DNA of 63,807 nt, counting the filler, from an uncultured Acidimicrobiia bacterium (GTDB taxonomy: Bacteria > Actinomycetota > Acidimicrobiia > Spongiisociales > JAOTWH01), in assembly GCA_964347285.1 (NCBI GenBank). It is 3 parts of 3 records of this genome, joined end to end, with 100 filler letters (N's around TTAATTAATTAA, not from the genome) between each part and the next. Parts side by side here need not be neighbours in the genome. Positions count along the whole stretch, not along the records: positions 44,561 to 63,807 come from CAYFYE010000047.1; 2 more parts are not named here. One strand, 5' to 3'. Of this stretch, positions 47,972 to 63,410 are shown in pieces (the stretch's first letter is position 1; each line of letters begins with the position of its first letter). The notes under the pieces were generated by a model, which was not told the DNA's origin, did not search any database, and saw only the letters and a program-made list of their open reading frames with translations. Position numbers and translations under genes: made by a program.

Positions 47972-48043
<72 letters not shown>

Positions 48044-49070: not shown

Positions 49071-49207
49071 CCGCGCCGGCGCTGATTCGTCTGCTCGCCC
49101 TCGGCCTGCTCCAGCACCCGTAGCTGTTCGACGACGCGTATCGCCACCAAGACGAGCACCAGCGTCGTGGCGGTGGCGAAGGCCTGGGCGATGTCGAGAA
49201 ACGACAT
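49067..49207 (-). CDS. Small single-TM hypothetical protein
   Basis: 46-aa ORF with one hydrophobic helix downstream of the ligase gene. Confidence 0.4.
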   Translation of the reverse strand: MSFLDIAQAFATATTLVLVLVAIRVVEQLRVLEQAEGEQTNQRRRG

Positions 49208-49238
49208 GGCGTTCCATCGGGTCGACGCCGGTCCTGCT

Positions 49239-50198
49239 TTATGGGGAGTTTTCGCGCTCTGGCCGGGGGCCCTCGGCCTCCCAGGTGACCGACAGGGGAT
49301 CGTCATCGGTGAAGCCGACGAAACGAGGGGCCCGCAACCGGCCCGCCGACGTCCACTCCTTGTAGCCCACCATCGCCACCAGCTGAGGTTCCACCCACAC
49401 AGATTCCGTTGGGAGCTCGGGGTGGCTCAGGAAAGGGCACCGATCGGATCGCATCTCGTCGAGGGCGGCCCGAATGGCTCGCAGGACGTCCGCGCCAAAG
49501 CCAGTTCCGACCGAGCCGATCCAACGCAGCCCCTCGTGGCTCCGGAGGCCGACGAGGAGCGATCCGAAGGCACCGGCGCGGGCACCATGGCCCGGAGTGA
49601 ACCCTCCTACAACGGCCCGCACCCGAAGCACCCTGGAGATCTTCCGCCAGTGGTCCGAGCGCTTCCCGGGTAGGTATGGGGTGCCGAGTCGCTTGGCGAC
49701 GATGCCCTCCTGACCCCTTCCGATGACGCTCCTCCACAGTCCCATGCCATCACCGATCACGGTCTCGCATCGTCCTATGGAGGTGTCTGCAACGAGGGCA
49801 TCGAGCCGCTCGAGGCGGTATTCGATCGGTCGTCCGATGATCTCCCGGTCGTCGTAGAGCGCATCGAACGCCACAAAGGTGACCGGAAAACGCTCGATGC
49901 GATCCTTCCTGGGCGCGCCCATCCTCTGTTGCATGAGCTCGAAGGACGACCGACCGGACGCGTCGAGCACGACGAGCTCGCCATCGATCACACAGGGCCG
50001 ATCCGGGGCCAAGCCGCCCAGCTCCGGATAGGAGGCGGTGACGTCGTTGCCACGCCTGCTGCGCAGAACGATCGCCTTCCCATCCCAATACAGAAGCGAG
50101 CGGAAGCCGTCGAGTTTCTGGTCGAACAACCACCCCTGGTCACTGAAGGGCTCGGGCCACGGCGTGGCCAGCATTGGCTGGTAGCGCGGCAGGATCAC
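49239..50198 (-). CDS. ligD: ATP-dependent DNA ligase (LigD ligase domain, stand-alone)
   Basis: PMLA, KLDGFR, IDGELV, FDAL, EGIVAK, GSVGTGF, GRLRAPRF; no POL or PE domain. Confidence 0.88.
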   Translation of the reverse strand: MILPRYQPMLATPWPEPFSDQGWLFDQKLDGFRSLLYWDGKAIVLRSRRGNDVTASYPELGGLAPDRPCVIDGELVVLDASGRSSFELMQQRMGAPRKDRIERFPVTFVAFDALYDDREIIGRPIEYRLERLDALVADTSIGRCETVIGDGMGLWRSVIGRGQEGIVAKRLGTPYLPGKRSDHWRKISRVLRVRAVVGGFTPGHGARAGAFGSLLVGLRSHEGLRWIGSVGTGFGADVLRAIRAALDEMRSDRCPFLSHPELPTESVWVEPQLVAMVGYKEWTSAGRLRAPRFVGFTDDDPLSVTWEAEGPRPERENSP

Positions 50199-50656
50199 TC
50201 GGCCCCGAGCGCCTCCCGGACCAGCCGATTGACGAGGGCCCCGTCGAGGCGGTCGTCGCCCGACTTCATGATGTGCCCGGTCACCTTTCCCCCCAACTTC
50301 GGGTCGTCGACTCCCAGCTCGGCGATGGCCTCGGCCACGATCGCCCTGGTCTCTTCCTCGCCCAACGCCTGCGGCAGCCATCGGGCCAGGTACTCGACCT
50401 CGAAGGCGAGCTTGGCGGCCTGAGCGGCGCCGCGCTCACCGGCCGCTTGAAACTCGTCCCGGGCCTTGGTCATCTTCTTGGAATAGGAGGCGATCACCCG
50501 CCGGCACAGATCGTCGTCGACATCACCCGAGAAGCCGGGCGCCGACTTGGCGATGGAGATCTCCGTCTGGATCGAGCGTATGACGTCGGATCGCCTCCGA
50601 TCGCGAGTGCGGATGGCGTCCGTGAGCTCGGCGGCCAGCTCCTCGGCGATGCTCAT
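50195..50656 (-). CDS. GatB/YqeY domain protein
   Basis: AIRTRD...IRSI, YLARWLPQAL, GKVTG, DGALVNRLVR. Confidence 0.88.
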   Translation of the reverse strand: MSIAEELAAELTDAIRTRDRRRSDVIRSIQTEISIAKSAPGFSGDVDDDLCRRVIASYSKKMTKARDEFQAAGERGAAQAAKLAFEVEYLARWLPQALGEEETRAIVAEAIAELGVDDPKLGGKVTGHIMKSGDDRLDGALVNRLVREALGAE

Positions 50657-50789
50657 GTTCGGAGGGTACCCCACCGGATGCCGAGGTCCGAGAGCGCGAA
50701 AACTACCCGTCAAAACCTCTGGTCTGGCCGCAAGCGGCTCGGTAGCATGCCGCGAGCGCGGTCCACCACGCTTTTATTTTGTCGGGCTT

Positions 50790-50805
50790 TGTGAACGCAT
50801 TCACA
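50790..50805. promoter_or_regulatory. CRP-family binding site upstream of whiB1
   Basis: Perfect TGTGA-ACGCAT-TCACA. Confidence 0.8.
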
Positions 50806-50835
50806 AGTCCCGTTTCGAGGGAGGAACTGAAAACC

Positions 50836-51102
50836 ATGCTGGCCGTAAAGGAGTGGCGCGAATTAGCCGCCTGCCGAAACAGCGACCCCGAGTTGTTCTT
50901 TCCGGTGGGCACCACCGGCCCTGCGCTCGGGCACATCGACAGCGCCGTGACCATCTGCAAGCAGTGCCCCGTGATCGACGAGTGCCTGCTCTACGCCTTG
51001 GAAACCAACCAGGAGTTCGGGGTATGGGGGAGCTACCCCGAAGACGACCGTCGCCGGCTACGCAAGCGCTGGCTGGCCGAAAAGCGGCGGCGGGCCAGCT
51101 GA
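50836..51102 (+). CDS. whiB1: WhiB family Fe-S transcriptional regulator (WhiB1-like)
   Basis: WR..AAC..DPELFFPVGTTGPA, C..CPV...CL.YAL, GVWG. Confidence 0.88.
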   Translation: MLAVKEWRELAACRNSDPELFFPVGTTGPALGHIDSAVTICKQCPVIDECLLYALETNQEFGVWGSYPEDDRRRLRKRWLAEKRRRAS

Positions 51103-51257
51103 GGCCGATCGCCCCGCCCATCGACCCTGGATCAGGTCCGACGGCTGCGGCTCCCTGACGTGGAGCCCGGCCGGTCCTGACGGAGGACCGGAACCGCGGC
51201 CTTGGGCCCCTCGACACGCTCGGTCGGGCCGTGGGCGCGGCGCCCTCCGCCGGATGA

Positions 51258-51488
51258 TTACTCGTCGTGAGGGGCGAAACCGATTCCGGGCCGCTCGGGA
51301 GGCTCGACGCCGAAGTAGAGGATGGCGGCGACGCTCACAACCGTTCGCCCTCCCCCCTGCTCCTGAATCGAGAGCAGCTGCTCCCCGGCCTCGAGGGTAT
51401 GGCGGTATTCCTCCAGCACCGCCTCGGCATCAGCGACGTCGACGTCGAGCTCTTTCGTGGCGTTGGCTATGCCGATGCGAAGGTGCAC
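51258..51488 (-). CDS. DUF3107 family protein
   Basis: LRIGIANATKEL...GRTVV...Y...E..RPGIGF; AGGAGG SD. Confidence 0.75.
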   Translation of the reverse strand: MHLRIGIANATKELDVDVADAEAVLEEYRHTLEAGEQLLSIQEQGGGRTVVSVAAILYFGVEPPERPGIGFAPHDE

Positions 51489-51530
51489 GGTCCATCCTCC
51501 TCTTGGCCTGCGCTCGATCGTAGCCCTGCG

Positions 51531-52622
51531 TCAACGGATCACCAGCTCGGGGTGGGTGCGCACCTTGGGGCGCCGCTGCACCACCGCGGCGGCGATGTCG
51601 CGAAACGCTTCGGCCGCCTCCGAGTCGGGAGCGGCCGCTGCCACCGGGAGACCTTCGTCGGCACCGCGACGCAGGGCGGGGACCAGCGGCACCCTGCCCA
51701 GCAGGGGCACGCCGAGCTCGGCCGCCAGTGCTTGCCCACCGCCTTCTCCAAAGATCTCGTAGCGCGTGCCGTCGTCACCCGTGAACCAAGACATGTTCTC
51801 CACCACCCCCATTACTTCCTGGTTGACCTTCTCCGCCATCAGGGCGGCCCTCTTGGCGACTCGCTGGGCGGTCGGCTGCGGCGTCGTGACGATGATGGCC
51901 CGGGCTCTCGGTAAGAACTGAGACAACGAAATGGCCACATCTCCGGTACCGGGGGGGAGGTCGATCAGCAGGTAGTCGGGCTCACCCCAGAGAACGTCGG
52001 AAAGGAACTGCTCGAGGGCTTTGTGCAGCATCGGTCCTCGCCAGATCACGGCCTGATCGGGAGGTACGAAGTAGTCCATCGAGATCACCCGCACGCCGTG
52101 AGCCTGGGTAGGCAGCAGGGCTTCTTCGATCACCCGGGGCTGCTGGGCGGCTCCCAGCATCTTGGGAATGGAGAATCCCCACACGTCGGCATCGACGATC
52201 CCCACGGCGTAGCCGGCCTGGGCGAGGGCGACACCGGTGTTGGCGGTGACGGAGCTCTTTCCGACCCCTCCCTTGCCGCTGGAAACGGAGATGACCTGTG
52301 TGGGCGACTCCGGCCCGCCCACACGAATACCGCCCTCTCCCTTGATACGGCTGATCACGGCCGCTCGCTGGTCGGGGGGCATGTCTTCGATCTCGACCTC
52401 GGCTCGCTCGATGCCGTCCACCGCCGTGGCCGCCGCCGCGACGGCCTGCGCCAGGACCGAACGCAGCGGCGAGTCGAATACGAGCATGGCCACTCGAATC
52501 GCTGCCGAGCCGTCCGACGACACCTCGACGTCGAGCACCGCATCCAGCTTCTCAAGGGGGGTATGAAGCTCCGGATCGCGGACTGCGCCGACAGCAGATC
52601 GAACGGATTGTTGGTCACTCAT
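51531..52622 (-). CDS. mrp: Mrp/NBP35 (ApbC) Fe-S cluster carrier ATPase
   Basis: DPEL N-domain, SGKGGVGKS, DADVWG, WRGPMLHK, DLPPGTGD, VENMS. Confidence 0.94.
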   Translation of the reverse strand: MSDQQSVRSAVGAVRDPELHTPLEKLDAVLDVEVSSDGSAAIRVAMLVFDSPLRSVLAQAVAAAATAVDGIERAEVEIEDMPPDQRAAVISRIKGEGGIRVGGPESPTQVISVSSGKGGVGKSSVTANTGVALAQAGYAVGIVDADVWGFSIPKMLGAAQQPRVIEEALLPTQAHGVRVISMDYFVPPDQAVIWRGPMLHKALEQFLSDVLWGEPDYLLIDLPPGTGDVAISLSQFLPRARAIIVTTPQPTAQRVAKRAALMAEKVNQEVMGVVENMSWFTGDDGTRYEIFGEGGGQALAAELGVPLLGRVPLVPALRRGADEGLPVAAAAPDSEAAEAFRDIAAAVVQRRPKVRTHPELVIR

Positions 52623-52882
52623 CGAGGAGCGCGCACTATAGGGGGACGTCGCCGTGATCCGGTCCCCTCCCAACGCACCCTCGGAACCTGAGAGGCAATT
52701 GGATCTCGTATCGGCGTCAAGACGCTGGTTGGGATGGGGCTAGTACACGGGGCCCGTCCGGCTGGTCGAGCTCGATGCCGACGCCGGCAACTGCGGGATC
52801 TCGACCGTTTCGTTGCCACTGCTGCACGCTGCCAACAGGCACTCCGCCGGCGAGGACGGCGATGAGGCGACGACGATCGGCC

Positions 52883-53773
52883 TCATCCGCTGACCGGGGT
52901 ACCGTACAGTTCGATCTCGACTTGGCGAACCGCCTCGTCGACCGGCGCCTGGCACTCCAGGTCCCGCATCGCCACTGCGATCTCCTCGGCCTGCAACTCG
53001 TTGAGGGCGTCGAGCCTGGCACCCGTGAGCTCCTCCGGATCCTCTCCTTCGCTCACGACATCGAGACGCTCTTCGTACTCCTCGATGATCTCGTCCTGGT
53101 CCTCATAGTCGTAGCCTTCCTCCTGCATGCAGTCGATCCACTCCTCTTCGGCGGCCTGCACCCGCGGATCGAACTCCACAAGGATGTCCTTGGGGTTTAC
53201 GAACGTCGCGGCGAGCATCTCCGGTGGGAATACCTCCTCTACCGCGGACCTGGTGCAGCCCCCGGTGGAAGAGAAGTCCTCGTCGTCGAGGGTGATCGCA
53301 AACGTCGCATCCGTGTCGTCGCCGAAGAGGGTGCGGTCGTACGCGACCTGATCGGCTTCGGACAGCTCGTCGTAGATCGCGAGGTTCTGCGGGCCCAGCC
53401 CCACTTCCCTCGCCGGGAAGTCGAAGCGAGTCGAGATGCCGTATCCCCACTGGCTCTTGTACTCCTCCCGGCTCATCGTTGGAGCCGTCCGGAGCCACTC
53501 TTCCACCTCCAGGATGGCCGTCACGTCGACCGGGACGTACTCGAAGCCGGCGTCGGCCATGCAGGAGGCGATGAGCGACTCGGTTGCCTCCACCTTCTCG
53601 GCGAACTCCTCGTCGGTGAGGCCAAAGGCCTGGGTGCCGGGGAGGTCGGCCGGGAGGGTAGTCGCGGCCTCCGAGCCACCATCGTCGGCCTCCGACGTAT
53701 CTGTGCCTTCAGATCGCCCACAAGCGCTCGTCAACAGGACGAGGATCGCCGAGATCGCAAGCAACGCCTTCAC
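52883..53773 (-). CDS. Hypothetical lipoprotein, paralog of 20855-21706
   Basis: GTG after AAGGAGG, lipobox LTSAC, SCMADAGFEYVP, TGGCTR. Confidence 0.8.
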   Translation of the reverse strand: MKALLAISAILVLLTSACGRSEGTDTSEADDGGSEAATTLPADLPGTQAFGLTDEEFAEKVEATESLIASCMADAGFEYVPVDVTAILEVEEWLRTAPTMSREEYKSQWGYGISTRFDFPAREVGLGPQNLAIYDELSEADQVAYDRTLFGDDTDATFAITLDDEDFSSTGGCTRSAVEEVFPPEMLAATFVNPKDILVEFDPRVQAAEEEWIDCMQEEGYDYEDQDEIIEEYEERLDVVSEGEDPEELTGARLDALNELQAEEIAVAMRDLECQAPVDEAVRQVEIELYGTPVSG

Positions 53774-53804
53774 CCTTTCCTCCTTGTGTGATATCGGGCT
53801 ATGC

Positions 53805-53866
53805 AAGCTCATCTAAGCTGAGTCTGCACTGAAAGTGTTCGACTCGCGCTCAGCTCTCCTTCAGCT
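53805..53866. promoter_or_regulatory. Candidate OmpR/PhoB-family boxes in the divergent promoter
   Basis: TCAGCT-n5-TCAGCT (53850, 53861) on +, and AAGCTCA/AAGCTGA (53805, 53815) facing the other gene. Confidence 0.45.
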
Positions 53867-53888
53867 TGGCTACTTCATAGTGAGATAG

Positions 53889-55061
53889 ATGAGACGAACC
53901 CGGCAACTCGCAGTAGCGACCATTGTCGCAATCGTGGCGGCGGCGATCGCAGGATGGGTCGCCGGTACGAGGATTCAGTCTCCGGCCGAGGCCGCCGCCC
54001 AGACGGCTGCGCCGGAGCCTTCTCCCATTCTGGTTCCGGTCGAGGAGCGGGAGCTCTCTACCGACGTCGTGACGCGGGGCACCGGACGCTTCGGTTCGCC
54101 GCAGGCGCTGATGCTGGCGCCATCCGCCCTCAAGAGCGAGGCCGGCGTGGCCACCAGTCTCCCCGAGCTGGGGGCGCAAATGGCCGAAGGTGACCTGCTG
54201 CTGACGGTCTCGGGGCGACCGGTCTTCATCTTCCAAGGGAACGTACCGTCGTTTCGTGATGTCGGCCCTGGAGTGCGGGGTGAAGACGTGCGGCAGCTCG
54301 AGGCGGCCCTGGCCCGGCTGGGACTCGACCCCGGGCCGGCGGATGGGCTCTTCGACGAAGCAACCGGCGAGGCGATGACCGAGTGGTACCGGAGCAAGGG
54401 CTTCGAGCCGGTGATCGCCACGGACGAACAGCTGGCCGAGATCCGCTCGTCCGAGACGTCGTTGATCGCCGAGGCCACCGCGGTCGGTGGCGTTCAGGTT
54501 CCCGCCGACGAGGTGGTATTCGCGCCGTCGTTCCCGCTGCGGGTATCGGAGCTACCGGTGCCAATCGGCGCCACCGTCGATGGGCCGGTGGTCCTGGTGA
54601 CGGACGCTGCAGTCGCCGTCGACGGGTCGCTGCCCATCGAGAGCGCAGGCCTCGTGACCGAAGGCATGACGGTCCTGATCGACGAGCCCGACCTGGGGAT
54701 CGAGGCTACGGGAGTGGTGGGCTTTGTCGCTGAGGGACCCGGGACCAATGACCTCGACGGATTCCACGTGTATTTCGAGGTCGTCGTCGACGAAGCCCCG
54801 GCCAACCTCGTCAACGCCTCCGTTCGCCTCACCATCCCGACCGAGTCCACCTCGGGGCCGGTGCTTGCAGTGCCCATCAGCGCCCTGTCGCTGGGGCCGG
54901 ATGGGTCGTCGCGTGTCCAGCGCCGGGCCGGCGACTCGCTCGAGTACGTGGCCGTGGAGCCGGGGCTGTCGGCGAAGGGTTATGTGGCAGTGGCTCCCAT
55001 CGAGGGCACGCTGCAACCGGGAGATCTGGTGGTGGTGGGTTTCGACCGGCAGGCCTCATGA
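53889..55061 (+). CDS. Peptidoglycan-binding efflux (MacA-like) adaptor protein
   Basis: TM anchor, PG-binding domain GEDVRQLEAALARLGLDPGPADG, C-terminal VLAVPISAL...V.PGL....V.V...LQPGDLVVVG. Confidence 0.87.
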   Translation: MRRTRQLAVATIVAIVAAAIAGWVAGTRIQSPAEAAAQTAAPEPSPILVPVEERELSTDVVTRGTGRFGSPQALMLAPSALKSEAGVATSLPELGAQMAEGDLLLTVSGRPVFIFQGNVPSFRDVGPGVRGEDVRQLEAALARLGLDPGPADGLFDEATGEAMTEWYRSKGFEPVIATDEQLAEIRSSETSLIAEATAVGGVQVPADEVVFAPSFPLRVSELPVPIGATVDGPVVLVTDAAVAVDGSLPIESAGLVTEGMTVLIDEPDLGIEATGVVGFVAEGPGTNDLDGFHVYFEVVVDEAPANLVNASVRLTIPTESTSGPVLAVPISALSLGPDGSSRVQRRAGDSLEYVAVEPGLSAKGYVAVAPIEGTLQPGDLVVVGFDRQAS

Positions 55062-55190
55062 CGGAACCGACCCGGCCCCGAGACGAGCCGGCGGAGAGCA
55101 AAGTCGAGCTCGGCCGGCCCAAGAGGAATCCCCCAGCGCGGTGCAGCCTCCCACATGGCACGGAGCAGCTCGGGAGGTGACGGCCGGACA

Positions 55191-56408
55191 ATGCGCGTCT
55201 ACGAGCTAGCCCGTGAGCTCGATCGCAAATCGAAGGATGTGCTGGCACGCGCCCGAGAGCTCGGCATCGAGGTGACCGCGGCCTTGTCCGGTCTACACGA
55301 GGAATATGCCGAGCTGCTGCGAGCGTCGTATGCAGAAGAGGCCGGGACGCCTGCTCCCTCCTCCGACGGCCCCTCGGAGACAGAGGCCACCTCCGAAGCC
55401 GAGGCGCCGACCGAACCTGAGGCCGAACCACCGCCGCAGGCGCCCACCGAGGCAGAGGCGGAGCCGGTGCCGGAGCAAGCAGCCGGGGAAGCGGAAGTTG
55501 GTAGGGGGATGGAACCGCTCGAGGTGCCGACCGGGGTCACCGTCGCCGAGTTCGCCGATGCCATCGGCGAGGGGCCGGGGACGGTCAAAACGGAGTTGGA
55601 GGCAAAGGGGAAAAGGGTGACGGCCGACTCGCCGCTACCCGTCGATGCCCTCGAGCTGTTGGGGGAGGCCTTCGGCTACCAGGTGCGCGTGACCGAAGCT
55701 CCCAAACGGGAAGCGGAACAGCAGCCGAAGCCTCCGGCCCCGCTCGTCGAGCTCGAGGCTGTGACGAAGACCTATGGCGCCGATCCCCCGGTGCGGGCGT
55801 TGCGCGATGCGACGCTGAGTATCGATCGCGGTGACTGGCTGGCCGTCGTCGGTCCCTCCGGCTCCGGCAAGTCGACCCTGCTGCACATCATGGGCCTCTT
55901 GGATCGCCCTTCGACCGGGCGCTACCTGCTCGACGGCACCGACGTCGGCGCCCTCGCCGACCGCCAGCGGGCCGGTGTGCGGAGCAGGGACATCGGCTTC
56001 GTCTTCCAGACGTTCCACATGATGTCGCATCGGTCGGTCACCGAGAACGTGATGCTCGCCGACGTGTACCGGCGCGGATCGCGGCGAGATCGGCGAGACC
56101 GCGCGTTGCGGGCACTCGAGCAAGTTCATCTGGCTCACCGTCGCGACTATTTACCGTCGCGGCTCTCGGGGGGCGAGCGCCAGCGGGTCGCGATCGCTCG
56201 AGCGATCTTGGGCGAACCACAGCTGTTGCTGTGCGACGAGCCCACCGGCAACCTCGACGTCGCCACCGGGGCGACGATTCTGGACCTGTTCGGCGAGATG
56301 TATCGGGAGGGGCTGACCATCGTGATGATCACCCACGACGACGATGTGGCGACCCGGGCGAGGCGTCGGGTCCGCATCGTCGACGGCCGAATCGATGGGA
56401 TGGAATGA
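55191..56408 (+). CDS. ABC transporter ATP-binding protein (LolD/MacB type) fused to two IF2_N domains
   Basis: MRVYELARELD..SKDVL...ELG and VTVAEFADAIG...LELLGEAFGY (IF2_N-like); GPSGSGKST, FVFQ, LSGGERQRVAIAR, LLLCDEPTGNLD, ITHD. Confidence 0.9.
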   Translation: MRVYELARELDRKSKDVLARARELGIEVTAALSGLHEEYAELLRASYAEEAGTPAPSSDGPSETEATSEAEAPTEPEAEPPPQAPTEAEAEPVPEQAAGEAEVGRGMEPLEVPTGVTVAEFADAIGEGPGTVKTELEAKGKRVTADSPLPVDALELLGEAFGYQVRVTEAPKREAEQQPKPPAPLVELEAVTKTYGADPPVRALRDATLSIDRGDWLAVVGPSGSGKSTLLHIMGLLDRPSTGRYLLDGTDVGALADRQRAGVRSRDIGFVFQTFHMMSHRSVTENVMLADVYRRGSRRDRRDRALRALEQVHLAHRRDYLPSRLSGGERQRVAIARAILGEPQLLLCDEPTGNLDVATGATILDLFGEMYREGLTIVMITHDDDVATRARRRVRIVDGRIDGME

Positions 56409-57625
56409 TCGAGCGGAAACGATCGTCCATGGCTCCCGCCGACATGGTGAGCGAGGCCGTGGCCGGTCTCCTCGCTCGCCCGGGGAGAACGGGGTTGACC
56501 ATCCTCGGTACCGTCATCGGGTTGGCCGCGCTGGTCGCCACAGTCGGCCTCTCGCAGACGGCGGGTAACCGCATCGTGGGCCGGTTCGACGAGCTGGCGG
56601 CGACGGAGATCTTCGTCACTTCCAAGCCCCCCGCCCTGAACGCCCTCGACAGCGATCTTCCCTGGGACGCGCCGGCACGCCTGGAACGGCTCGAAGGGGT
56701 GGTCGCGGCCGGGAACATCAGCGTGATCGATGTCGGCGAAGCACTGGTGACGACCTCACCCGTTCGCGATCCGGCCCAGCGCACCGACTTCAAACTCAGC
56801 GTCCAGGCGGCATCCCCCGGGCTCTATCGAGCGGTTCGGGCCGAGCTCGCCACCGGCATGCTCCCCGACGAGCTCCACTCGCGGCGAGGCGAGCAGATCG
56901 CCGTCCTAGGGGCGAGTGCGGCAGACCGTCTCGGGATCACCAGCCTCGAGCAACTGCCCGCGATCCGCGTCGGCGACGATGTCTTCCTGGTCGTCGGCAT
57001 TGTCGACCAGGTCGCCCGCCAGTTCGATCTCCTGGGCGCCGTGATCATCCCGGAGGGGACGGCGCAGCGGCTCTACCGCCTCTCCAGCCCGGAGAGGGTC
57101 GTCGTCGAGACCAACATCGGAGCCGCCTCGGTCATTGCCGCCCAGGCGCCGCATGCCCTGAGGCCGGACAACCCGACCGGCCTCAAAGTCGCCTTCCCGG
57201 CAGAGCCGCAGCGGGTCCGGGAGGCGGTCCAGAGCGATCTCAACCTGCTCTTTCTCATCCTGGGCAGTGTGGCTCTGCTCGTGGGAGCCCTCGGCATTGC
57301 CAACGTCACCCTGGTCTCGGTGATGGAGCGCACCGGGGAGATCGGCCTACGCCGCTCGCTCGGTGCCACCCGCCGCCACATCGCGATGCAGTTCCTTCTC
57401 GAGAGCAGCACGATGGGAGTCGTCGGCGGCGTGCTCGGGGCTGCCGCCGGCACGCTCATCGTCGTCGGGGTGGCGGCGAGCCAGTCGTGGACCCCGGTGC
57501 TGCATCCCCTCATCCCGATCGGCGCACCCCTCGTCGGCGGGCTCATCGGCTTGCTCGCCGGCATCTACCCCTCGCTGCGGGCCGCTCACCTCGAACCCGT
57601 CGAGGCGCTGCGGTCGTCGACCTAA
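56405..57625 (+). CDS. ABC transporter permease (MacB/FtsX type)
   Basis: RTGLTILGTVIG, LLVGALGIANVTLVSVMERTGEIGLRRSLGA, QFLLES, YPSLRAA.LEPVEALR; ATGA overlap. Confidence 0.94.
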   Translation: MIERKRSSMAPADMVSEAVAGLLARPGRTGLTILGTVIGLAALVATVGLSQTAGNRIVGRFDELAATEIFVTSKPPALNALDSDLPWDAPARLERLEGVVAAGNISVIDVGEALVTTSPVRDPAQRTDFKLSVQAASPGLYRAVRAELATGMLPDELHSRRGEQIAVLGASAADRLGITSLEQLPAIRVGDDVFLVVGIVDQVARQFDLLGAVIIPEGTAQRLYRLSSPERVVVETNIGAASVIAAQAPHALRPDNPTGLKVAFPAEPQRVREAVQSDLNLLFLILGSVALLVGALGIANVTLVSVMERTGEIGLRRSLGATRRHIAMQFLLESSTMGVVGGVLGAAAGTLIVVGVAASQSWTPVLHPLIPIGAPLVGGLIGLLAGIYPSLRAAHLEPVEALRSST

Positions 57626-57803
57626 GTCGACCCTCCTCGGCCGGAAGTGCAGGCGAGGGATCACGGGACATCCTGTCCGAGACGATCTTCCCGAGGGCCG
57701 GGTTCACGCGGTTTGAGAGCGAAGCGAGCCGGGCTACCCCCTCCTGGACCGGCAACATCCTCCCTGCCGGTTCCCGATACGATTGAGGCCAGAAACAAGG
57801 ACG

Positions 57804-60086
57804 GTGAACCAGGCAATGGCACTGCTCGATCAGGCCGAGGCGAGCACGATCTACCGCCGGTATCCAGACCGCATTGCTCACGCCCGAGAGCGTTTTGGGC
57901 GACCGCTGACGTTGGTGGAGAAGGTGCTGTACGCCCATCTGGCCGACCACACCGTGGCCGATCTGGAACGAGGGATCACGTACACCTACTTCAACCCGGA
58001 CCGGGTGGCCATGCAGGACGCCACCGGGCAGATGGCACTCCTCCAGTTCATGCTGGCGGGTCGGGACCAGGTGGCGGTCCCCACGACCGTCCATTGCGAC
58101 CATTTGATACGTGCCCACGAGGGGGCGGGCGACGACCTCGAGACGGCTCTGGCCGAGAACTTCGAGGTGTACGAGTTCCTGAGAACGGCATCAGAGAAGT
58201 ACGGCATCGGATTCTGGAAGCCGGGGGCGGGAATCATCCACCAGGTCGTGCTCGAGAACTATGCCTTCCCGGGCGCCATGATGATCGGCACCGACAGCCA
58301 CACCCCCAACGCCGGCGGACTTGGCATGATCGCCATCGGGGTCGGCGGTGCCGACGCCGTCGACGTGATGGCCGGTCTCCCGTGGGGACTGCGCTATCCC
58401 AAGCTGATCGGCGTCCATCTGACCGGGTCGTTGTCGGGCTGGACGGCGCCCAAGGACGTGATTCTGAAGGTGGCCGAGTTGCTCACCGTCAAGGGCGGTA
58501 CGGGAGCCATCCTGGAGTATTTCGGACCCGGGGCGGCGTCGGTCAGCGCCACCGGCAAGGCGACCATCACCAACATGGGAGCGGAAATCGGGGCCACGAC
58601 TTCGGTCTTTCCGTACGACGAGCGTATGTCCGCCTACCTGCAGGCCACCGATCGGGGGGCCGTGGCCGAACTGGCCGATGGCTACGCCGAGTTCCTCACC
58701 GCCGACCACGAGGTGGCCGACGACCCCGAGCAGTTCTACGACCGGGTCATCGAAATCGACCTCGATGCCCTCCAGCCGCACGTAGTCGGGCCGCACACTC
58801 CCGACCTGGCCCGTCCCATCTCCCGACTCGGGGCCGATGCGGTCGAGAGCGACTACCCGGTCGAGATCTCCAGCGCCCTCATCGGTTCCTGCACGAACAG
58901 CTCCTACGAAGACATGGGTCGGGCTGCCCATGTAGCCGAGCAAGCCATCACACACGGAGCCAAGGTCCAGACGCCCCTCCTGGCCACTCCGGGATCGGAG
59001 CAGATCAGGGCAACGATCCAACGGGACGGCCAGCTCCGGGCCCTGGAAGAGATCGGAGCGGTGGTGCTGGCCAACGCCTGCGGTCCGTGCATCGGGCAAT
59101 GGAAGCGGAACGACATCTCCGAGGGAGAGCGCAACAGCATCGTCACCTCGTACAACCGCAACTTCCCCCGCCGCAACGACGGCAACTCGGAGACGCTGGC
59201 CTTCATCGGAAGCCCGGAGGTCGTGGTCGCCTTGGCTTTGGCCGGCCGGCTCGACTTCAATCCGCTGACCGACGAGCTCGCCGGAGCCGAAGGGCCCTTC
59301 CGGCTGGAGCCGCCCGAGGCCCCCGAGTTTCCCCAGGCCGGCTTCGATCCGGGCGAATCCGGCTACATACCGCCCGCCGGCGACGGAGGTGTCGTCGACG
59401 TCGTCGTCGACCCTGGGTCGGACCGCTTGGCCTTGCTGAAACCGTTCCCGGGCTGGGACGGCCGAGACCTCGAGAACCTGGCCGTGTTGGTCAAGGCGCA
59501 GGGTAAGTGCACCACCGACCACATTTCCCCGGCCGGCCCCTGGCTGCGCTTTCGGGGCCACCTGGACAACATCTCCAACAACATGTTCATCGGCGCCCAC
59601 AACGCCTTCACCGGCAAGTACGGGTCGGGCCTCGACATCCTCGACGGCGACTACAAGGACTTCAGCGAGGTGGCTCGACATTACCGAGCCGAGGGATTGG
59701 GCTGGGTGGCGGTGGGTGACGAGAACTACGGGGAAGGGTCGAGCCGGGAGCATGCCGCAATGGAGCCGCGCCATCTGGGGTGCAAGGCGGTCATCGCTCG
59801 CTCGTTTGCCCGGATCCACGAAACCAACCTCAAGAAGCAGGGCATCTTGCCGTTGACGTTCACGGACCCGGCCGACTACGACAAGGTCGGAGAGCGGGAC
59901 CGGATCTCGATCATGGGGCTTCGCGATCTGGCACCGGGCCGTACGCTCAAAGTGGTGATTCGCCATCCCGATGGCTCCAAGGACGAGATCGAGGCCGACC
60001 ACACGATGGCCCAGGACCAGATTCCGTGGTTCCGCCACGGAAGCGCTCTCAACTACATCGCCGCCCAGAATCGCCGGGAGGTGTAG
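57804..60086 (+). CDS. Aconitate hydratase, mitochondrial-like subtype
   Basis: [72 protein letters not shown]; start GTG 57804 or ATG 57816. Confidence 0.95.
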
Positions 60087-60124
60087 GTAGGCGGCAGCCC
60101 CCGCTAATTTTGGCGGGACACGCC

Positions 60125-60763
60125 ATGAACCCCGACACGACGCCGGTCGAGCCCGACCAGGGCCAACCCACCGGCCGCCGTCACCGCATCCTCCCCTGGG
60201 CGCTGGCCGCGGCAGCGGTCGTGGTCGGCGCGGCCATCTGGGCCACAACCACCGGCGCCGGCAGCGATCCGAACGGGGAGAGCGATCGTGTGGAGCAAGG
60301 GCCGATCGAGGCGGCACCGGTGCCGGAAGGGCCCATCGGGGCAGTGGACCCCTTCTTCGCCCATCCCTTCGAGGCCGATCTGTTCGACGGCACCACCTTC
60401 CGGCTCACCGAGCACCTCGCTTCCGATGGTCGGCCGGTGTTCCTCAACCTGTGGGCGTCGTGGTGTTTCCCTTGTCGGGAGGAGATGCCGGCCATCGACG
60501 CCGTGGCTGCCCGGCATCCCGAGGTCTTCTTCCTCGGGGTCGCCGTGGAGGATGATCCAACCGCAGCCGAGGACTTTGCGGCCGAGATCGGGGTGGACTA
60601 CACGCTCGGCATCGATGAAACCGGTCTGGTCGCCCAGATGTACCCCGCTCTCGGACTGCCGGCCACGTTCCTGATCACCCCCGACCAACAGGTGGTGGGG
60701 CGCTTGTTCGGGGGGGCCAGTGAGCAGACCTTCGAGGAGTTCCTCACCAACCTGAACCGTTGA
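60125..60763 (+). CDS. TlpA/ResA family disulfide reductase
   Basis: TM anchor, FLNLWASWCFPCREEMP, LGLPATFLI. Confidence 0.92.
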   Translation: MNPDTTPVEPDQGQPTGRRHRILPWALAAAAVVVGAAIWATTTGAGSDPNGESDRVEQGPIEAAPVPEGPIGAVDPFFAHPFEADLFDGTTFRLTEHLASDGRPVFLNLWASWCFPCREEMPAIDAVAARHPEVFFLGVAVEDDPTAAEDFAAEIGVDYTLGIDETGLVAQMYPALGLPATFLITPDQQVVGRLFGGASEQTFEEFLTNLNR

Positions 60764-60764
60764 G

Positions 60765-61532
60765 TCAGCGACCCGTCCACTCGGGAACGCGCTTGTCCCG
60801 AAAAGCGGCGATCCCTTCACCGGCGTCCTCGGTCAGGGCCGCGGCGGTCAAGCCGTTCTGTAGGAAGTCGAGAGCGGCGTCGAAGGGCATGTCTTCAGCG
60901 GCATAGAAGGCGTCCCGGCCCAGTCGCAGCGTTGCGGGACTCTTGGCGGCGAGCAACTCCACCACCTCGTCGACCACTTCGTCCAGCTCGGCAGCGGGAA
61001 CGACACGGGTCACTACACCCAGCTCCTGGGCCTCGGCCGCCGACAGCCGGCGCCCGGTCATCATCAGCTCCAGTGCCGGCTTGGGACCCATGGCCCGCAC
61101 CAACGCCGGCGAGATCATCATCGCCCACAGGCCGACATCGATCTCAGGGCTGCCCAAGGTGGCGTGATCGGCGGCAATGACGACGTCGCACATGGCGGCA
61201 ACGCCGAACCCGCCTGCCAGGGCATGCCCGTTCACCCGGGCCACGGTGGGCTTGCCGGCCCGGCGCAGTGCCCGCAGCAGATCGGCGAGCGCACCTCGAG
61301 CTGCGTGCAGAGCGATTGGCTCCTCGACAAAGCCGCCGGAGAGGTCGCCGCCCGCCGAGAACGCTCTGTCTCCGGCACCGGTGATGACGATCACCCGCAC
61401 CTCCGAATCGGCGGCGGCCCTGTCCACGGCTGCTCGCAAATCAGCCATGACCTTCGTGGACAGCGGATTGTGCCGCTCGGGATCGTCGATGATGACTGTG
61501 GCCTGCGGCGGGTGGGACTCGTAACGAAGCAC
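60765..61532 (-). CDS. Enoyl-CoA hydratase/isomerase family protein
   Basis: ITGAGDRAFSAGGDL, KPTVARVNGHALAGG, PEIDVG, EGIAAFRDKRVPEWTGR. Confidence 0.92.
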   Translation of the reverse strand: MLRYESHPPQATVIIDDPERHNPLSTKVMADLRAAVDRAAADSEVRVIVITGAGDRAFSAGGDLSGGFVEEPIALHAARGALADLLRALRRAGKPTVARVNGHALAGGFGVAAMCDVVIAADHATLGSPEIDVGLWAMMISPALVRAMGPKPALELMMTGRRLSAAEAQELGVVTRVVPAAELDEVVDEVVELLAAKSPATLRLGRDAFYAAEDMPFDAALDFLQNGLTAAALTEDAGEGIAAFRDKRVPEWTGR

Positions 61533-61617
61533 GGGGCCTCCTCGATGGGAAGCCGAGAGCCTACCGGCCGAGCTCTCCCCAACCCGGCGCCGGCCCTCCA
61601 CTGGTACCGTGCCTCCC

Positions 61618-62196
61618 ATGGCCTGGATCGCCATCGTGCTGGTGGCGGCGATCGCAGTGGCACTCCTGAGAGGGGGAACGCTGAGGAATCTCGCCGATAT
61701 TCCTCTGCGGGCTTGGTGGCTCCTCGTCTTCGGTGCGGCGATGCAGGTCGCGGCCGGCCTGCTGCCCGATGACCAGACATGGTCCACACGAGTCGGTGTC
61801 GGCCTGATCCTGTTCTCCTACATCCCACTCTTCGCCGTGGCGCTCCTCAACCGTGCCCAGCCGGGGATGTGGCTGGCCGGTGTGGGCATCCTCATGAACT
61901 TCACGGTGATCTCGCTGAACGGCGGCATGCCGGTCCTTCCCGAGGCGGCGGTATTGGCAGGCGCCGAGAGCTCCGACCTGGTGCTGAATGCCAAGCACGT
62001 TGTTCTCGACGAGGGGACCCGTCTGGTCTTCCTGGCCGACGTGATCCCGCTCCGCTTCTTGGGTCAGGTGATATCGGTGGGTGATGTCTTCCTCGCCCTG
62101 GGCCTGGGACAGTTCCTCGAAGGACAGTTGCGTCGCCCGACCCGCTATTTCCGGCGTACCGGCACCAGTCGGCCCGGCTCGGCGGCCGGTCAGTAG
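61618..62196 (+). CDS. DUF5317 family membrane protein
   Basis: RGG.L.NL, N....GMWL...G...N..VI..NGGMPV, LADVIP, SVGDV. Confidence 0.8.
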   Translation: MAWIAIVLVAAIAVALLRGGTLRNLADIPLRAWWLLVFGAAMQVAAGLLPDDQTWSTRVGVGLILFSYIPLFAVALLNRAQPGMWLAGVGILMNFTVISLNGGMPVLPEAAVLAGAESSDLVLNAKHVVLDEGTRLVFLADVIPLRFLGQVISVGDVFLALGLGQFLEGQLRRPTRYFRRTGTSRPGSAAGQ

Positions 62197-63410
62197 GCGA
62201 TCGTCCCACGCCGGGCCAGCACCCGCCGCAGGGAGCTCACCACCTTGGGATCGAAATCGTATGCCGCCCCCCGGTGCAACACCTCGACGGCCTCGAGAGG
62301 ATCGAGTCCCGTCTCGCTCACCGCCTGGTCGAAGGCGCTCGCCACCTTGATCACGCGGGAAGCCGTGGGGAGAGCCTCGTCGCGCTCTTCGCCGGGCTGA
62401 CGGAACGGATGGTGCTGTTGGCGGACGGCGCCGACCACCCGTCGCAGATATGGTGCTTCGGCGATGATCTCGGCCCCCCAGCGAGCGATGTCCTCGTCCG
62501 TATAGCCGGCCTTGAGAATGGCCGGCTCGTTCAACGCAATCCGTCCTATGTCGTGCATCAAGGCGGCGTATTCGAGCTCGGCCACGCGGCGGGGCTCCAA
62601 CCCCAAGTCGCGGCCTATCGCCTCGGCGATGGCGGCCGTGCGTGCGGCGTGTCCTTCGATGGCCAGCCCGGCCGCCTCCGGAATGCGGGCCAAGGCCCGG
62701 ATCGTCTGACCGTAGGTCACCCGGGTGCCCTGATAGCGGACGAAGGCGAGGTGGCTGAATCCGTACGACATCCCGGCCATGGGAATAGCCCACCAGCGCA
62801 GTACCGGAAAGGCGAGCCCGAAGAGAGCCCCGGCCGCCACCAGGCCCACCACGACCGGCCAGTCCTCGAGCCCGCGCAACCACAGGTAGCGGAAGGCGAA
62901 GTGGTCTCGCTGGTAACCGGCCACCGCTCGAACCAACGCCGAAACCATGTACCAGGTCAGCCCGGCGGCAGCCACCGCCAGCAGCTCGGCGACCTGCTGC
63001 GACAACCCGGCCTGATCCCCTCTTGCAAGCGCCCCCTGGAAAATGAGCCCGTAGCCGGCCAATCCCAGGGCGGTGGGAAGGAACTTGGTGGCCCCATCGG
63101 AAGCGCCCAACACCACCAAGCTCGACGCCAGCAGGCCGAGCGAGTAGATGGCCCCGACGGCGAAACCGTCTGGGGCCAGGAAGGGGACCGCCGCCGCCAC
63201 CGCCAGCCCGATGTCGAGGGAATCGCCGGATGGGGTGGGGACCCGAATGAGCTGGGCTGCTCCGAGCAGCGCCGCCCCCAGCAGGATCCCCCATAGGGGA
63301 GCTTCGGAGGCGGTCGCCAGCACCGAGCCGGTGCCGGCGGTGGCGGTCCACACCACCAGGGACACTCGATCGAGGCCCGAGCTAGCCGTAGATCCGATAG
63401 GCATTGGCAT
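62190..63410 (-). CDS. Membrane-bound HD-GYP-like protein (degenerate)
   Basis: Multiple TM segments, GHAART, AALMHDIGR, KVASAFD, FDPKVV; no GYP motif. Confidence 0.8.
   Translation of the reverse strand: MPMPIGSTASSGLDRVSLVVWTATAGTGSVLATASEAPLWGILLGAALLGAAQLIRVPTPSGDSLDIGLAVAAAVPFLAPDGFAVGAIYSLGLLASSLVVLGASDGATKFLPTALGLAGYGLIFQGALARGDQAGLSQQVAELLAVAAAGLTWYMVSALVRAVAGYQRDHFAFRYLWLRGLEDWPVVVGLVAAGALFGLAFPVLRWWAIPMAGMSYGFSHLAFVRYQGTRVTYGQTIRALARIPEAAGLAIEGHAARTAAIAEAIGRDLGLEPRRVAELEYAALMHDIGRIALNEPAILKAGYTDEDIARWGAEIIAEAPYLRRVVGAVRQQHHPFRQPGEERDEALPTASRVIKVASAFDQAVSETGLDPLEAVEVLHRGAAYDFDPKVVSSLRRVLARRGTIAY

What the first reader, a model, noticed from the sequence alone, without database searches (positions are those of the whole stretch)
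55191..56408. ABC-transporter ATPase carrying the IF2 N-terminal region (two IF2_N subdomains)
Seen: the LolD/MacB-type ATPase (from about 55743) is preceded in frame by MRVYELARELDRKSKDVLARARELGIEV (55191-55331), an acidic Pro/Glu/Ala linker, and PLEVPTGVTVAEFADAIGEGPGTVKTELEAKGKRVTADSPLPVDALELLGEAFGYQVRV (55515-55691). Known: initiation factor 2 has this N1-linker-N2 layout ahead of its P-loop GTPase, and the region contacts the ribosome. Here an ABC ATPase with intact Walker A, LSGGE, Walker B and H-loop replaces the GTPase, inside an intact adaptor-ATPase-permease operon. Inference: a membrane transporter or mechanotransducer that may dock ribosomes or RNA, linking envelope export to translation. 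I do not know of this architecture being described.
Basis: partly seen in the sequence, partly recalled or inferred. Interest (0 to 1): 0.82.

Follow-up and report, generated by a model that had tools for sequence, protein, structure and literature searches.

The report
IF2 N-terminal region fused to ABC ATPase
An uncultured Acidimicrobiia bacterium copied the front end of its own translation initiation factor IF2 gene onto the motor subunit of a membrane exporter and has kept the hybrid, a real but so far single-species oddity whose function is untested.

Summary
ORF 55191-56408 encodes 405 aa: IF2 sub-domain N1, an acidic linker, sub-domain N2, then a complete MacB/LolD-type ABC ATPase. It sits between a peptidoglycan-binding adaptor gene and a MacB_PCD/FtsX permease gene.

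It is not an assembly artefact. One short-read contig spans both junctions, and three other metagenome contigs carry the same gene.

The origin can be traced. About 0.65 kb of this organism's own nusA-tail/infB-5' DNA, including infB's ribosome-binding site and ATG, was inserted a few codons into the ATPase gene. The old start survives as a 40-codon upstream ORF. A normal infB (676 aa) sits elsewhere in the genome.

The copy groups with the organism's own infB (99% bootstrap). It evolves about four times faster than infB, yet far below the neutral rate if both copies are assumed equally old.

I found no second IF2_N+ABC protein in any search. IF2_N does head other membrane proteins and NusB in the same class.

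Ribosome or NusA docking is plausible from the literature but untested; I put it at about 25-30%. I call this a new variant of a known kind, of moderate interest.

The parts
53889..55061 (+). Membrane-anchored periplasmic adaptor with a peptidoglycan-binding domain; first gene of the operon
   Evidence: ORF; PG_binding_1 E 2e-7 and PG_binding_2 E 6e-6. Its C-terminus aligns with the adaptor end of the own paralog operon in L016.
55058..55180 (+). 40-codon upstream ORF (MTEP...). It is the likely remnant of the ancestral ATPase start, with an ATGA overlap onto the adaptor stop. It ends at a TGA inside the new Shine-Dalgarno sequence.
   Evidence: Translation. The paralog ATPase starts MPEP and overlaps its adaptor's stop. 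A second paralog operon has a 4-nt overlap between adaptor stop and ATPase start. Calling it a remnant is inference from 4 codons plus position.
55101..55190 (+). Leader copied from the nusA 3' end and the nusA-infB spacer, including SD GGAGGTGA at 55173-55180
   Evidence: DNA alignments with own L001 1410-1503. Homology begins between about 55101 and 55115.
55191..55343 (+). IF2 sub-domain N1 (aa 1-51)
   Evidence: IF2_N 44.9 bits; 78% aa and nt identity to own IF2 N1; AF2 pLDDT 80-93, three helices.
55344..55514 (+). Acidic Pro/Glu/Ala linker (aa 52-108), about 20 residues longer than in own IF2. It contains an in-frame ATG at 55509.
   Evidence: pLDDT 50-60.
55515..55691 (+). IF2 sub-domain N2 (aa 109-167)
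   Evidence: IF2_N 18.6 bits, against 19.8 for own IF2 N2; 67% identity to own N2; pLDDT 88-94. Foldseek: 7uiu (IF2 N2 on 30S) prob 1.00; 4b47, rmsd 1.0 over 52 columns.
55692..55742 (+). Remnant of the IF2 N2-G linker and the fusion junction. The breakpoint lies within about 55728-55745, at a short CCCCG/CCCG microhomology.
   Evidence: Three-way DNA alignment of the fusion, own infB and the paralog ABC gene. Homology to the paralog ABC gene starts at 55739.
55743..56408 (+). Complete MacB/LolD/FtsE-type ABC nucleotide-binding domain (aa 185-405)
   Evidence: ABC_tran E 4.6e-31; LolD, FtsE and MacB models match at E 1e-57 to 1e-60 but below their equivalog cut-offs; motif positions; 60% identity to own paralog.
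56405..57625 (+). MacB-type permease (MacB_PCD + FtsX); its start overlaps the ATPase stop (ATGA)

Best explanation
SHOWN. This is a genuine gene fusion seen in one lineage. About 0.65 kb of the organism's own nusA-3'end/infB-5' DNA was inserted about four codons into the ATPase gene of a MacB-type adaptor-ATPase-permease operon, in frame at its 3' end. The insert carries the Shine-Dalgarno sequence, the ATG, N1, the acidic linker, N2 and the first part of the N2-G linker. The ATPase can now be made only from infB's start signals, as a 405-aa protein with a 184-aa IF2-N appendage. That appendage is cytoplasmic by inference from MacB topology. The former start survives as a 40-codon upstream ORF that stops inside the new SD, which could keep translation coupled to the adaptor gene.

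SHOWN, WITH ONE ASSUMPTION. If both paralogs have diverged for the same time, the appendage has been under purifying selection. It evolves about 4 times faster than IF2's own N region, but far below the neutral rate.

INFERRED. The appendage works as a docking module that keeps IF2-N's usual contacts. N2 would contact the 30S shoulder (h16). N1 would contact NusA or the transcription complex, although two N1 residues that are invariant in IF2 have changed. This would place the exporter's motor at sites of active translation and transcription, or make it sense them. I give the docking step about 25-30% on its own.
For: Architecture and reality.

Origin:
- The fusion region is 77% identical in DNA to own nusA-tail/infB-5', and the homology runs about 90 nt upstream of the ATG, through the SD.
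- Own IF2 (P0002) is the best hit of the N region among 64 hits.
- The codon ML tree groups fusion and own infB at 99% UFBoot, against 4 relatives' infB.
- Homology to the ABC paralog starts at 55739, and the paralog ATPase starts MPEPVVDL overlapping its adaptor's stop.
- The uORF is confirmed by translation.

Only this copy is extended:
- 9 loci of paralogs and relatives were examined, and 7 held an ATPase gene. In all 7 a start codon lies 37-52 residues before Walker A, against 220 here.
- None of the 7 other genomes of the family has a second IF2_N locus.
- Of the 120 best ABC-domain homologs listed, only the query itself carries PF04760.

Selection:
- NG86 for fusion against own: dN 0.177, dS 0.88, omega 0.20.
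- Branch model with equal time for both paralogs: omega 0.10 for the fusion against 0.026 for own IF2. Neutrality is rejected (2dlnL 47, p 7e-12) and equal omega is rejected (p 0.0016).
- The fusion keeps 36 of 44 positions that are at least 80% conserved in 39 IF2 rows (N2 12/12, N1 21/26). Own IF2 keeps 39/44.
- The ATPase motifs are intact despite dS of about 0.9 since the event, and there is no alternative start that keeps strand beta-1.

Plausibility of docking:
- IF2 N2 binds h16 of the 30S shoulder (PMC9192638, passages read; 7uiu is a top fold match).
- E. coli N1 binds NusA (PMC12297416, passages read).
- IF2_N heads other membrane proteins (Wzy_C, a weak DUF7551 match that I recalled as Wzz-like, single-pass proteins) and NusB in the same class.
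Against: - There is no expression evidence. No RNA run holds the stretch and no proteome is available.
- Only one species carries the fusion, so conservation across species cannot be tested.
- Without the equal-time constraint the codon model cannot reject neutrality (p 0.11). Synonymous sites are near saturation, only 108 codons are alignable, and the branch model is my own script.
- N1 has lost T30 and S32, which are invariant in 39 IF2 rows, and L45 (92%). So an IF2-specific N1 contact may be gone.
- In IF2, N2 contributes only part of a large interface, about 1173 of 5146 square angstroms (PMC9192638). An isolated N2 may therefore bind 30S weakly.
- Own NusA lacks the AR1 domain used in E. 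coli: Pfam finds NusA_N, S1 and KH domains only, plus an acidic tail.
- E. coli IF2 N regions are dispensable under laboratory conditions (bioRxiv 10.64898/2026.02.08.704698, abstract and three sections read in full, plus searched passages).
Confidence: 0.45

Rival explanations
1. Tolerated passenger. The insertion was kept because it supplies the only working start site for an ATPase that the cell needs. The IF2-N region is a harmless flexible appendage with no partner. Apparent constraint reflects selection against misfolding or aggregation, or an over-estimate of the copy's age.
For: - Single species only.
- The fusion branch is 3.5 times longer than own infB's.
- Its omega is about 4 times higher than IF2's.
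- Residues invariant in IF2 N1 are lost.
- Neutrality is not rejected without the clock constraint.
- IF2 N regions are dispensable in E. coli (10.64898/2026.02.08.704698).
Against: - With equal divergence time, neutrality is rejected at p 7e-12.
- N2 keeps 12/12 widely conserved positions.
- The 184-codon region stays open and foldable (pLDDT about 90 for both sub-domains) after dS of about 0.9.
- A pure spacer would be expected to shrink or decay.
Confidence: 0.3
2. Expression rewiring. What matters is the DNA or RNA, not the protein appendage. The insert gave the ATPase gene infB's strong translation-initiation region and perhaps infB-like regulation, while the uORF keeps coupling to the adaptor gene. 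The protein extension is a by-product.
For: - The copied segment includes the SD, spacer and start of infB.
- The first 29 coding nucleotides are identical to infB.
- The uORF ends 10 nt before the new ATG.
Against: - This explains constraint on the first codons only, not on N2, which lies 320-500 nt downstream. For N2 alone neutrality is still rejected (2dlnL 30).
- No promoter-like site was found in 53600-57900.
Confidence: 0.12
3. Decoy or competitor. The membrane-tethered copy of IF2's N region titrates an IF2-N partner (NusA, 30S, or an unknown factor) away from IF2, tuning initiation rather than transport.
For: The N region is a near-complete copy of IF2's partner-binding part without the GTPase. 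IF2_N copies occur on other proteins in this class.
Against: No evidence on abundance. A transporter ATPase is an odd carrier for a decoy. The ATPase and the operon remain intact, which suggests that the transporter is the selected unit.
Confidence: 0.05
4. Artefact: a chimeric MAG contig or a dead pseudogene.
For: The genome is a MAG of 187 contigs. All supporting assemblies may come from one study.
Against: - One short-read contig of even depth (5.45) crosses both junctions without a mismatch.
- Three further contigs with their own SNPs carry the fusion.
- The insert is only 77% identical to own infB, so it is not a mis-join of infB reads.
- The frame is open and all ATPase motifs are intact.
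Confidence: 0.02

Closest known systems
N-terminal region of bacterial initiation factor IF2 (sub-domains N1 and N2; Pfam IF2_N PF04760; PDB 7UIU, 4B47)
   Same: The same N1-acidic linker-N2 layout. It is 78% (N1) and 67% (N2) identical to this organism's own IF2, with the same predicted folds. It also keeps infB's SD and start codon.
   Different: There is no G domain and no IF-2 or C domains; an ABC nucleotide-binding domain follows instead. T30 and S32, invariant in IF2, have changed. The linker is about 20 residues longer.
MacB / LolD / FtsE-type (type VII) ABC ATPases of tripartite adaptor-ATPase-permease systems such as MacAB
   Same: A single NBD with all motifs, a MacB_PCD+FtsX permease next door, and a membrane-anchored adaptor upstream. 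It is 62-72% identical to ordinary 222-290-aa ATPases and to MacB-type ATPase-permease fusions of 652-677 aa.
   Different: A 184-aa IF2-derived N-terminal extension, found in none of the other 119 listed homologs and in none of 7 paralog or relative genes. It scores below the LolD, FtsE and MacB equivalog cut-offs. The adaptor carries a peptidoglycan-binding domain.
ABC-F proteins (ribosome-binding ABC ATPases such as EttA; named from my own knowledge)
   Same: An ABC ATPase that might contact the ribosome.
   Different: ABC-F proteins have two tandem NBDs and no membrane partner, and they bind the E site through their own linker. Here there is one NBD with a permease, and any ribosome contact would come through a borrowed IF2 domain. 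No ABC-F model was among the 25 best of 190 NCBIfam hits shown; the rest were not displayed.
Other IF2_N-headed proteins
   Same: A small IF2_N module on a flexible tether at the cytoplasmic N-terminus of an unrelated protein. In Acidimicrobiia these are IF2_N+Wzy_C, IF2_N+TM proteins and IF2_N+NusB. Earlier notes of this scan list it on a sigma factor, NusA, a dynamin-like GTPase and a CpcD protein (unchecked AI notes).
   Different: Those carry one or two IF2_N units of older origin. This one carries the whole N1-linker-N2 region, still traceable at DNA level to the host's own infB, and its partner is an ABC ATPase.

Membership tests
IF2_N domain (PF04760) | Profile match above Pfam's gathering score | tested here: met
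   Whole protein 53.6 bits against 25.3, in 2 stretches. N1 alone 44.9 bits. N2 alone 18.6 bits, below the cut-off but equal to the genuine N2 of own IF2 at 19.8.
IF2_N domain (PF04760) | Small helical IF2N/N2 fold | tested here: met
   AF2 with a 40-row IF2 alignment gives pLDDT 80-94 for both sub-domains. Foldseek hits include 7uiu (prob 1.00) and 4b47 (rmsd 1.0 over 52 columns). The model leans on the IF2 alignment.
Initiation factor IF2 (InfB) | Translational GTPase G domain plus IF-2 and C-terminal domains | tested here: not met
   No GTP_EFTU or IF-2 hit in the fusion. Own IF2 P0002 has them.
ABC transporter nucleotide-binding domain | Walker A, Q-loop, LSGGQ-type signature, Walker B, H-loop | tested here: met
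   ABC_tran E 4.6e-31; motif positions.
MacB-type (type VII) tripartite exporter | Partner permease with a MacB periplasmic core domain and an FtsX C-terminal domain, plus an adaptor gene in the same operon | tested here: met
   MacB_PCD E 2.6e-15 and FtsX E 9.4e-18 in the downstream gene, and a PG_binding adaptor upstream. The substrate and any outer partner are unknown.
LolD / FtsE / MacB equivalogs (NCBIfam) | Score above the curated equivalog cut-off | tested here: not met
   LolD 202.6 against 307.75; FtsE 197.7 against 264.85; MacB 193.2 against 966.
ABC-F ribosome-binding ATPases | Two tandem NBDs joined by a linker, with no transmembrane partner | tested here: not met
   One ABC_tran stretch only; a permease gene is adjacent.
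Ribosome- or NusA-docking function of the IF2 N region | Physical binding to the 30S shoulder (N2) or to NusA (N1) | not testable with these tools
   Known for IF2 from PMC9192638 and PMC12297416 (passages read). For this protein it is only inferred.

The most novel reading that the evidence does not exclude
IF2's N region may be an autonomous address tag for the initiating ribosome or the NusA-bound transcription complex. By borrowing it, this bacterium would have wired a membrane exporter directly to the translation machinery, so that export or envelope mechanotransmission happens at sites of ongoing translation or is gated by it. IF2_N heads on Wzy-like, other single-pass membrane and NusB proteins in the same class would then be further uses of the same tag.
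Probability: 0.15. Interest if true: 0.8.

Novelty: new variant of a known kind. Interest (0 to 1): 0.45.

Why it matters
The role of IF2's N-terminal region has been unclear for decades: it is dispensable in the laboratory, and a NusA contact was found only in 2025. Here the whole N1-linker-N2 region has been naturally transplanted onto an unrelated membrane-associated ATPase, its origin is still readable in the DNA, and it shows signs of purifying selection. That argues that the region is a self-contained module with a job of its own, and it offers a simple construct for asking what the region binds.

It is also a clean example of how a new multi-domain gene arises in bacteria. A partial duplicate of an essential gene lands in another gene's first codons and brings its own ribosome-binding site.

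The limits are real. There is one uncultured species, no expression data and no tested function.

Tried and rejected
- Complex prediction of own NusA (25-row alignment A5) with fusion residues 1-60: no verdict (score 0.00, controls not run). This is neither for nor against binding.
- The look-up of sequencing runs: no RNA holder listed, so nothing can be said about expression.
- Unconstrained branch codon model: synonymous branch lengths ran to the bounds and neither omega=1 (p 0.11) nor equal omega (p 0.06) was rejected. I replaced it with an equal-time model, which rests on that assumption.
- Mixed alignment of the full fusion with IF2 N regions and ABC ATPases (A2): MAFFT pushed the IF2 N2 segments into the ABC columns. 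I did not use it for folding, and only the N region was modelled (A3). No model of the whole fusion was made.
- Genome-contig scan with the N region: the two hits (L021, L022) are ordinary infB genes.
- ESM Atlas: only plain ABC ATPase clusters.
- HMMER search of 1.84 billion representatives with the N region: 231 hits, of which the best 150 were listed. I scanned 23 of these (260-551 aa) with Pfam and 0 of 23 had ABC_tran; they are IF2 fragments. The shorter and the IF2-length rows were not scanned.
- Literature search for IF2_N / PF04760 / 'IF-2 N-terminal domain-containing': 32 papers, 20 listed. None of the listed titles or abstract openings describes an ABC fusion. InterPro architectures could not be queried.
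- The search of earlier findings by place and by sequence: nothing.
- Promoter and terminator scan of 53600-57900: 0 promoter-like sites and 1 minus-strand terminator-like site, no more than in shuffles.
- Chimeric assembly and pseudogene readings were rejected (see rivals).
Full report
WHAT THE WINDOW IS. The window is three contigs joined by N spacers: 1-22292, 22393-44460 and 44561-63807. The finding lies in the third, which is contig C47 of a 2.63-Mb, 187-contig, 90%-complete genome.

THE OBSERVATION. ORF 55191-56408 (+) encodes 405 aa.
- Pfam finds IF2_N (E 2e-14, 53.6 bits against a cut-off of 25.3, two stretches) and ABC_tran (E 4.6e-31).
- Scanned separately, N1 (aa 1-51) scores 44.9 bits and N2 (aa 106-170) scores 18.6 bits. 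The true N1 and N2 of this organism's own IF2 score 53.8 and 19.8, so the second segment is as IF2-like as a real N2.
- The ABC part matches LolD, FtsE, DarD and MacB models at E 1e-57 to 1e-60, but below every equivalog cut-off.
- Walker A (aa 221-229), the Q-loop, LSGGERQ (325-331), Walker B (345-352) and the H-loop (380-383) are intact.
- Upstream lies a membrane-anchored protein with a PG_binding_1 domain (53889-55061). Downstream lies a MacB_PCD+FtsX permease whose ATG (56405) overlaps the ATPase stop.

So the description is correct at the stated coordinates.

IS IT AN ASSEMBLY ARTEFACT? No.
- In run X1 one Logan contig of 1047 nt, at even depth 5.45, lies on 54837-55883 with no mismatch or gap. 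It crosses the adaptor end, the whole IF2-like region and the junction, up to Walker A.
- In X2, a second sample of the same study, a 206-nt piece covers 55545-55750.
- Three metagenome contigs from three other assemblies (L018, L019, L020) carry the same gene order, with 2, 6 and 8 mismatches (N positions included) over 3.5, 2.3 and 2.2 kb.
- These sources may all be one study or population, so they show that the DNA exists, not that it is widespread.
- The IF2-like segment is only 77% identical to the genome's real infB, so it cannot be a mis-join of infB reads.

WHERE IT CAME FROM. The genome has a normal infB on contig C74, directly after nusA. It encodes 676 aa with the full set of IF2 domains.
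- A DNA alignment of window 55100-55800 with that nusA-infB junction gives 77% identity. The homology does not stop at the ATG. It runs about 90 nt upstream, through the Shine-Dalgarno sequence (GGAGGTGA, 55173-55180) and into the last codons of nusA, starting between about 55101 and 55115.
- At protein level N1 is 78% and N2 67% identical to own IF2, against 40-62% for the infB of four relatives in the same family.
- Own IF2 is the best of 64 hits in the 5.8-billion-protein search.
- A codon ML tree groups the fusion with own infB at 99% ultrafast bootstrap. The fusion branch is 3.5 times longer.
- On the 3' side, recognisable infB homology fades at about 55695-55745. Homology to the closest ABC paralog of the same genome (contig C30, L016) begins at 55739, 9 nt after that paralog's ATG.
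- The paralog ATPase begins MPEPVVDLRGV and its ATG overlaps the stop of its adaptor gene. A second paralog operon (C132) has a 4-nt overlap between adaptor stop and ATPase start.
- In the window, an ATG (55058) still overlaps the adaptor stop (55059-55061) and reads MTEP. It then runs through the inserted DNA for 40 codons and stops at the TGA inside the new SD, 10 nt before ATG 55191.

The simplest reading is that about 0.65 kb of nusA-tail/infB-5' DNA was inserted after about codon 4 of the ATPase gene, in frame at its 3' end, at a short CCCCG/CCCG microhomology. The remnant-start reading rests on four codons plus position, so it is inference.

IS THE EXTENSION PECULIAR TO THIS GENE? Yes, as far as I searched.
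- I examined 9 loci holding homologous permease genes from paralogs and family relatives. Seven contained the ATPase gene, and in all 7 a start codon lies 37-52 residues before Walker A, against 220 here.
- Of 8 genomes in the GTDB family, only this one has an IF2_N match outside infB. The other seven are 70-89% complete.
- Of the 120 best ABC-domain homologs listed (62-72% identical), only the query itself carries PF04760.
- An exhaustive HMMER search of 1.84 billion representatives with the N region gave 231 hits, of which the best 150 were listed. I scanned 23 of these, of intermediate length (260-551 aa); none has ABC_tran, and they are fragments of IF2.
- The ESM Atlas returned only plain ABC ATPase clusters.
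- A full-text search for IF2_N / PF04760 returned 32 papers, 20 listed, and none of the listed titles or abstract openings describes such a fusion.
- I could not query InterPro architectures, so I write 'not found where searched', not 'absent'.

IS THE APPENDAGE DECAYING OR KEPT?
- Pairwise NG86 over 108 alignable codons gives dN 0.177, dS 0.88 and omega 0.20 between the fusion and own infB. That is within the range seen among orthologous infB genes (0.19-0.38).
- Splitting these distances with the nearest outgroup (my arithmetic) gives roughly dN 0.146 / dS 0.52 on the fusion branch, against 0.031 / 0.36 on the infB branch.
- A GY94-type branch model that I wrote could not separate the hypotheses when branch lengths were free. 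Synonymous sites are saturated in the outgroups, so neutrality was not rejected (p 0.11).
- I then required that the two paralogs have diverged for the same time, which follows if the duplication happened within this lineage. Omega is then 0.10 for the fusion and 0.026 for infB. Neutrality is rejected (2dlnL 47, p 7e-12), and so is equal omega (p 0.0016).
- N1 and N2 each reject neutrality separately. The relaxation is significant for N1 (p 0.0019) but not for N2 (p 0.09).
- The absolute omegas depend on the model. The ranking is the result.
- Against 39 IF2 N regions, the fusion keeps 36 of 44 positions that are at least 80% conserved (N2 12/12, N1 21/26). Own IF2 keeps 39/44. The losses include T30 and S32, which are invariant in all 39 rows.
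- AlphaFold2 with that alignment folds N1 (pLDDT 80-93) and N2 (88-94), with a disordered linker (50-60). Foldseek's best PDB matches are IF2 entries, including 7UIU (the N2 sub-domain on the 30S subunit) and 4B47 (rmsd 1.0 over 52 columns).
- No in-frame start codon exists near the ABC domain that would keep its first strand. An intact ATPase after dS of about 0.9 therefore implies that the fusion frame has been the expressed form.

WHAT THE IF2 N REGION IS KNOWN TO DO (papers, passages read).
- In Pseudomonas aeruginosa 70S initiation complexes, N2 sits on the 30S shoulder against helix h16. It buries about 1173 of IF2's 5146 square angstroms (PMC9192638).
- In E. coli, Domain I (N1 plus the following segment) binds NusA's KH2/AR1 region in vivo. 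Earlier work is cited there as finding no noticeable ribosome binding by Domain I. N2 is said to act in subunit association (PMC12297416).
- N-terminal extensions are dispensable under standard conditions but matter under temperature and pH stress (bioRxiv 10.64898/2026.02.08.704698; abstract, introduction and NusA section read).
- Own NusA has NusA_N, S1 and KH domains and a roughly 100-aa acidic tail, but no AR domains.

CONTEXT: IF2_N IS A TRAVELLING MODULE IN THIS CLASS.
- In 301 Acidimicrobiia genomes, 299 have IF2_N matches. This tally includes three genomes flagged unpublished (G204, G235, G252) and rests on nothing else from them. Only the best 150 of 569 matches were listed.
- I looked at 13 genomes that had extra matches. 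Ten were re-scanned in full and three were looked at only at a fetched locus. Eleven loci were fetched from eleven of them, of which 10 were read and 8 were scanned with Pfam.
- The non-infB carriers found were: N1 + one TM helix + a Thr-rich 751-854-aa protein in one family of about 1.1-Mb genomes (L023, L024); IF2_N + acidic linker + TM + a domain with only a weak DUF7551 match (E 0.0038), which I recalled as Wzz-like (L027); two IF2_N + Wzy_C (L029); weak IF2_N + Pro-rich linker + TM (L031, L032); IF2_N-like + NusB (L026, L030); and a protein with two IF2_N and a basic tail (L028).
- None of them is an ABC ATPase.
- Earlier notes of this scan list IF2_N on a sigma factor, on NusA, on a dynamin-like GTPase and on a CpcD protein. 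I treat those as unchecked leads.

HOW IT MOST LIKELY WORKS.
- Shown: the exporter's ATPase is encoded as a fusion behind infB's start signals. The appendage is a folded N1 and N2 on flexible linkers. It would be cytoplasmic, because MacB-type NBDs are cytoplasmic (my own knowledge of the family).
- Shown under the equal-age assumption: it is under purifying selection, relaxed relative to IF2.
- Inferred: it still docks to an IF2-N partner. The better-kept N2 points to the 30S shoulder. N1 may have shifted partner. The result would be an exporter motor held at, or informed by, the translation and transcription machinery. I put this docking step at about 25-30%, and the whole statement at 0.45.
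- The main rival (0.30) is a tolerated passenger that persists because it provides the only start site.
- An expression-only role (0.12), a decoy role (0.05) and an artefact (0.02) follow.

COMPARISON AND NOVELTY.
- It works like, and is, a MacB-type ABC ATPase. It is not an IF2 (no GTPase) and not an ABC-F protein (one NBD, with a permease partner).
- Fusions of IF2_N to other proteins exist. This particular one is the whole N region, freshly traceable to the host's infB, on an ABC motor, and it was not found elsewhere.
- I call it a new variant of a known kind. Interest is 0.45: real, cleanly explained in origin and mildly surprising, but a single uncultured species with no functional data.

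Noticed in passing
L023:791-3046 (+) and L024:374-2938 (-): In one Acidimicrobiia family with genomes of about 1.1 Mb, a 751-854-aa protein starts with an IF2 N1 domain (43.8 bits), followed by one TM helix and a long Thr-rich extracellular part. It sits about 17 kb (G024) and 53 kb (G087) from the real infB. Many genomes of that genus show 3-4 IF2_N matches.
   Followed up: partly
L029:216-2072 (-); L027:621-2366 (-): IF2_N heads on envelope-polysaccharide membrane proteins. One has two IF2_N units plus a Wzy_C (O-antigen ligase-like) multi-pass protein. The other has IF2_N, an acidic repeat linker, a TM helix and a domain with only a weak DUF7551 match, which I recalled as Wzz-like.
   Followed up: partly
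L026:726-1289 (+); L030:360-938 (+): NusB with an N-terminal IF2_N-like domain (30.9 bits in L030; 21.2 bits, below the cut-off, in L026) in two genomes of the same order. This is of interest given the reported IF2 N1-NusA contact.
   Followed up: partly
L028:410-1447 (+): A roughly 346-aa protein with two tandem IF2_N domains (58.5 bits) and a Lys/Ala-rich basic tail, with no other Pfam hit.
   Followed up: no
L016:395-2344 (G000 contig C30): The closest paralog operon in the same genome has its ATPase and permease fused into one 649-aa MacB-like ORF. Its permease part is 66% identical to the window's, closer than any relative in the family (at most 42%). So the operon itself was duplicated in this lineage, and each copy was then remodelled differently.
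   Followed up: partly
window 55509-55511: An in-frame ATG (Met107) directly after a G-rich run (GGTAGGGGG), just before N2, with no counterpart in own infB. An internal start here would give an N2-ABC isoform, reminiscent of IF2 isoforms. The spacing to the G-run looks too short for a good SD.
   Followed up: no
window 22293-22392 and 44461-44560: N spacers show that the window is three separate contigs laid end to end. Features should not be read across these points.
   Followed up: yes
P0292 (407 aa): A database protein that combines an IF2 N region and half a G domain with a piece of SBP_bac_5. It is probably a frameshift or chimeric gene call rather than a real fusion.
   Followed up: no
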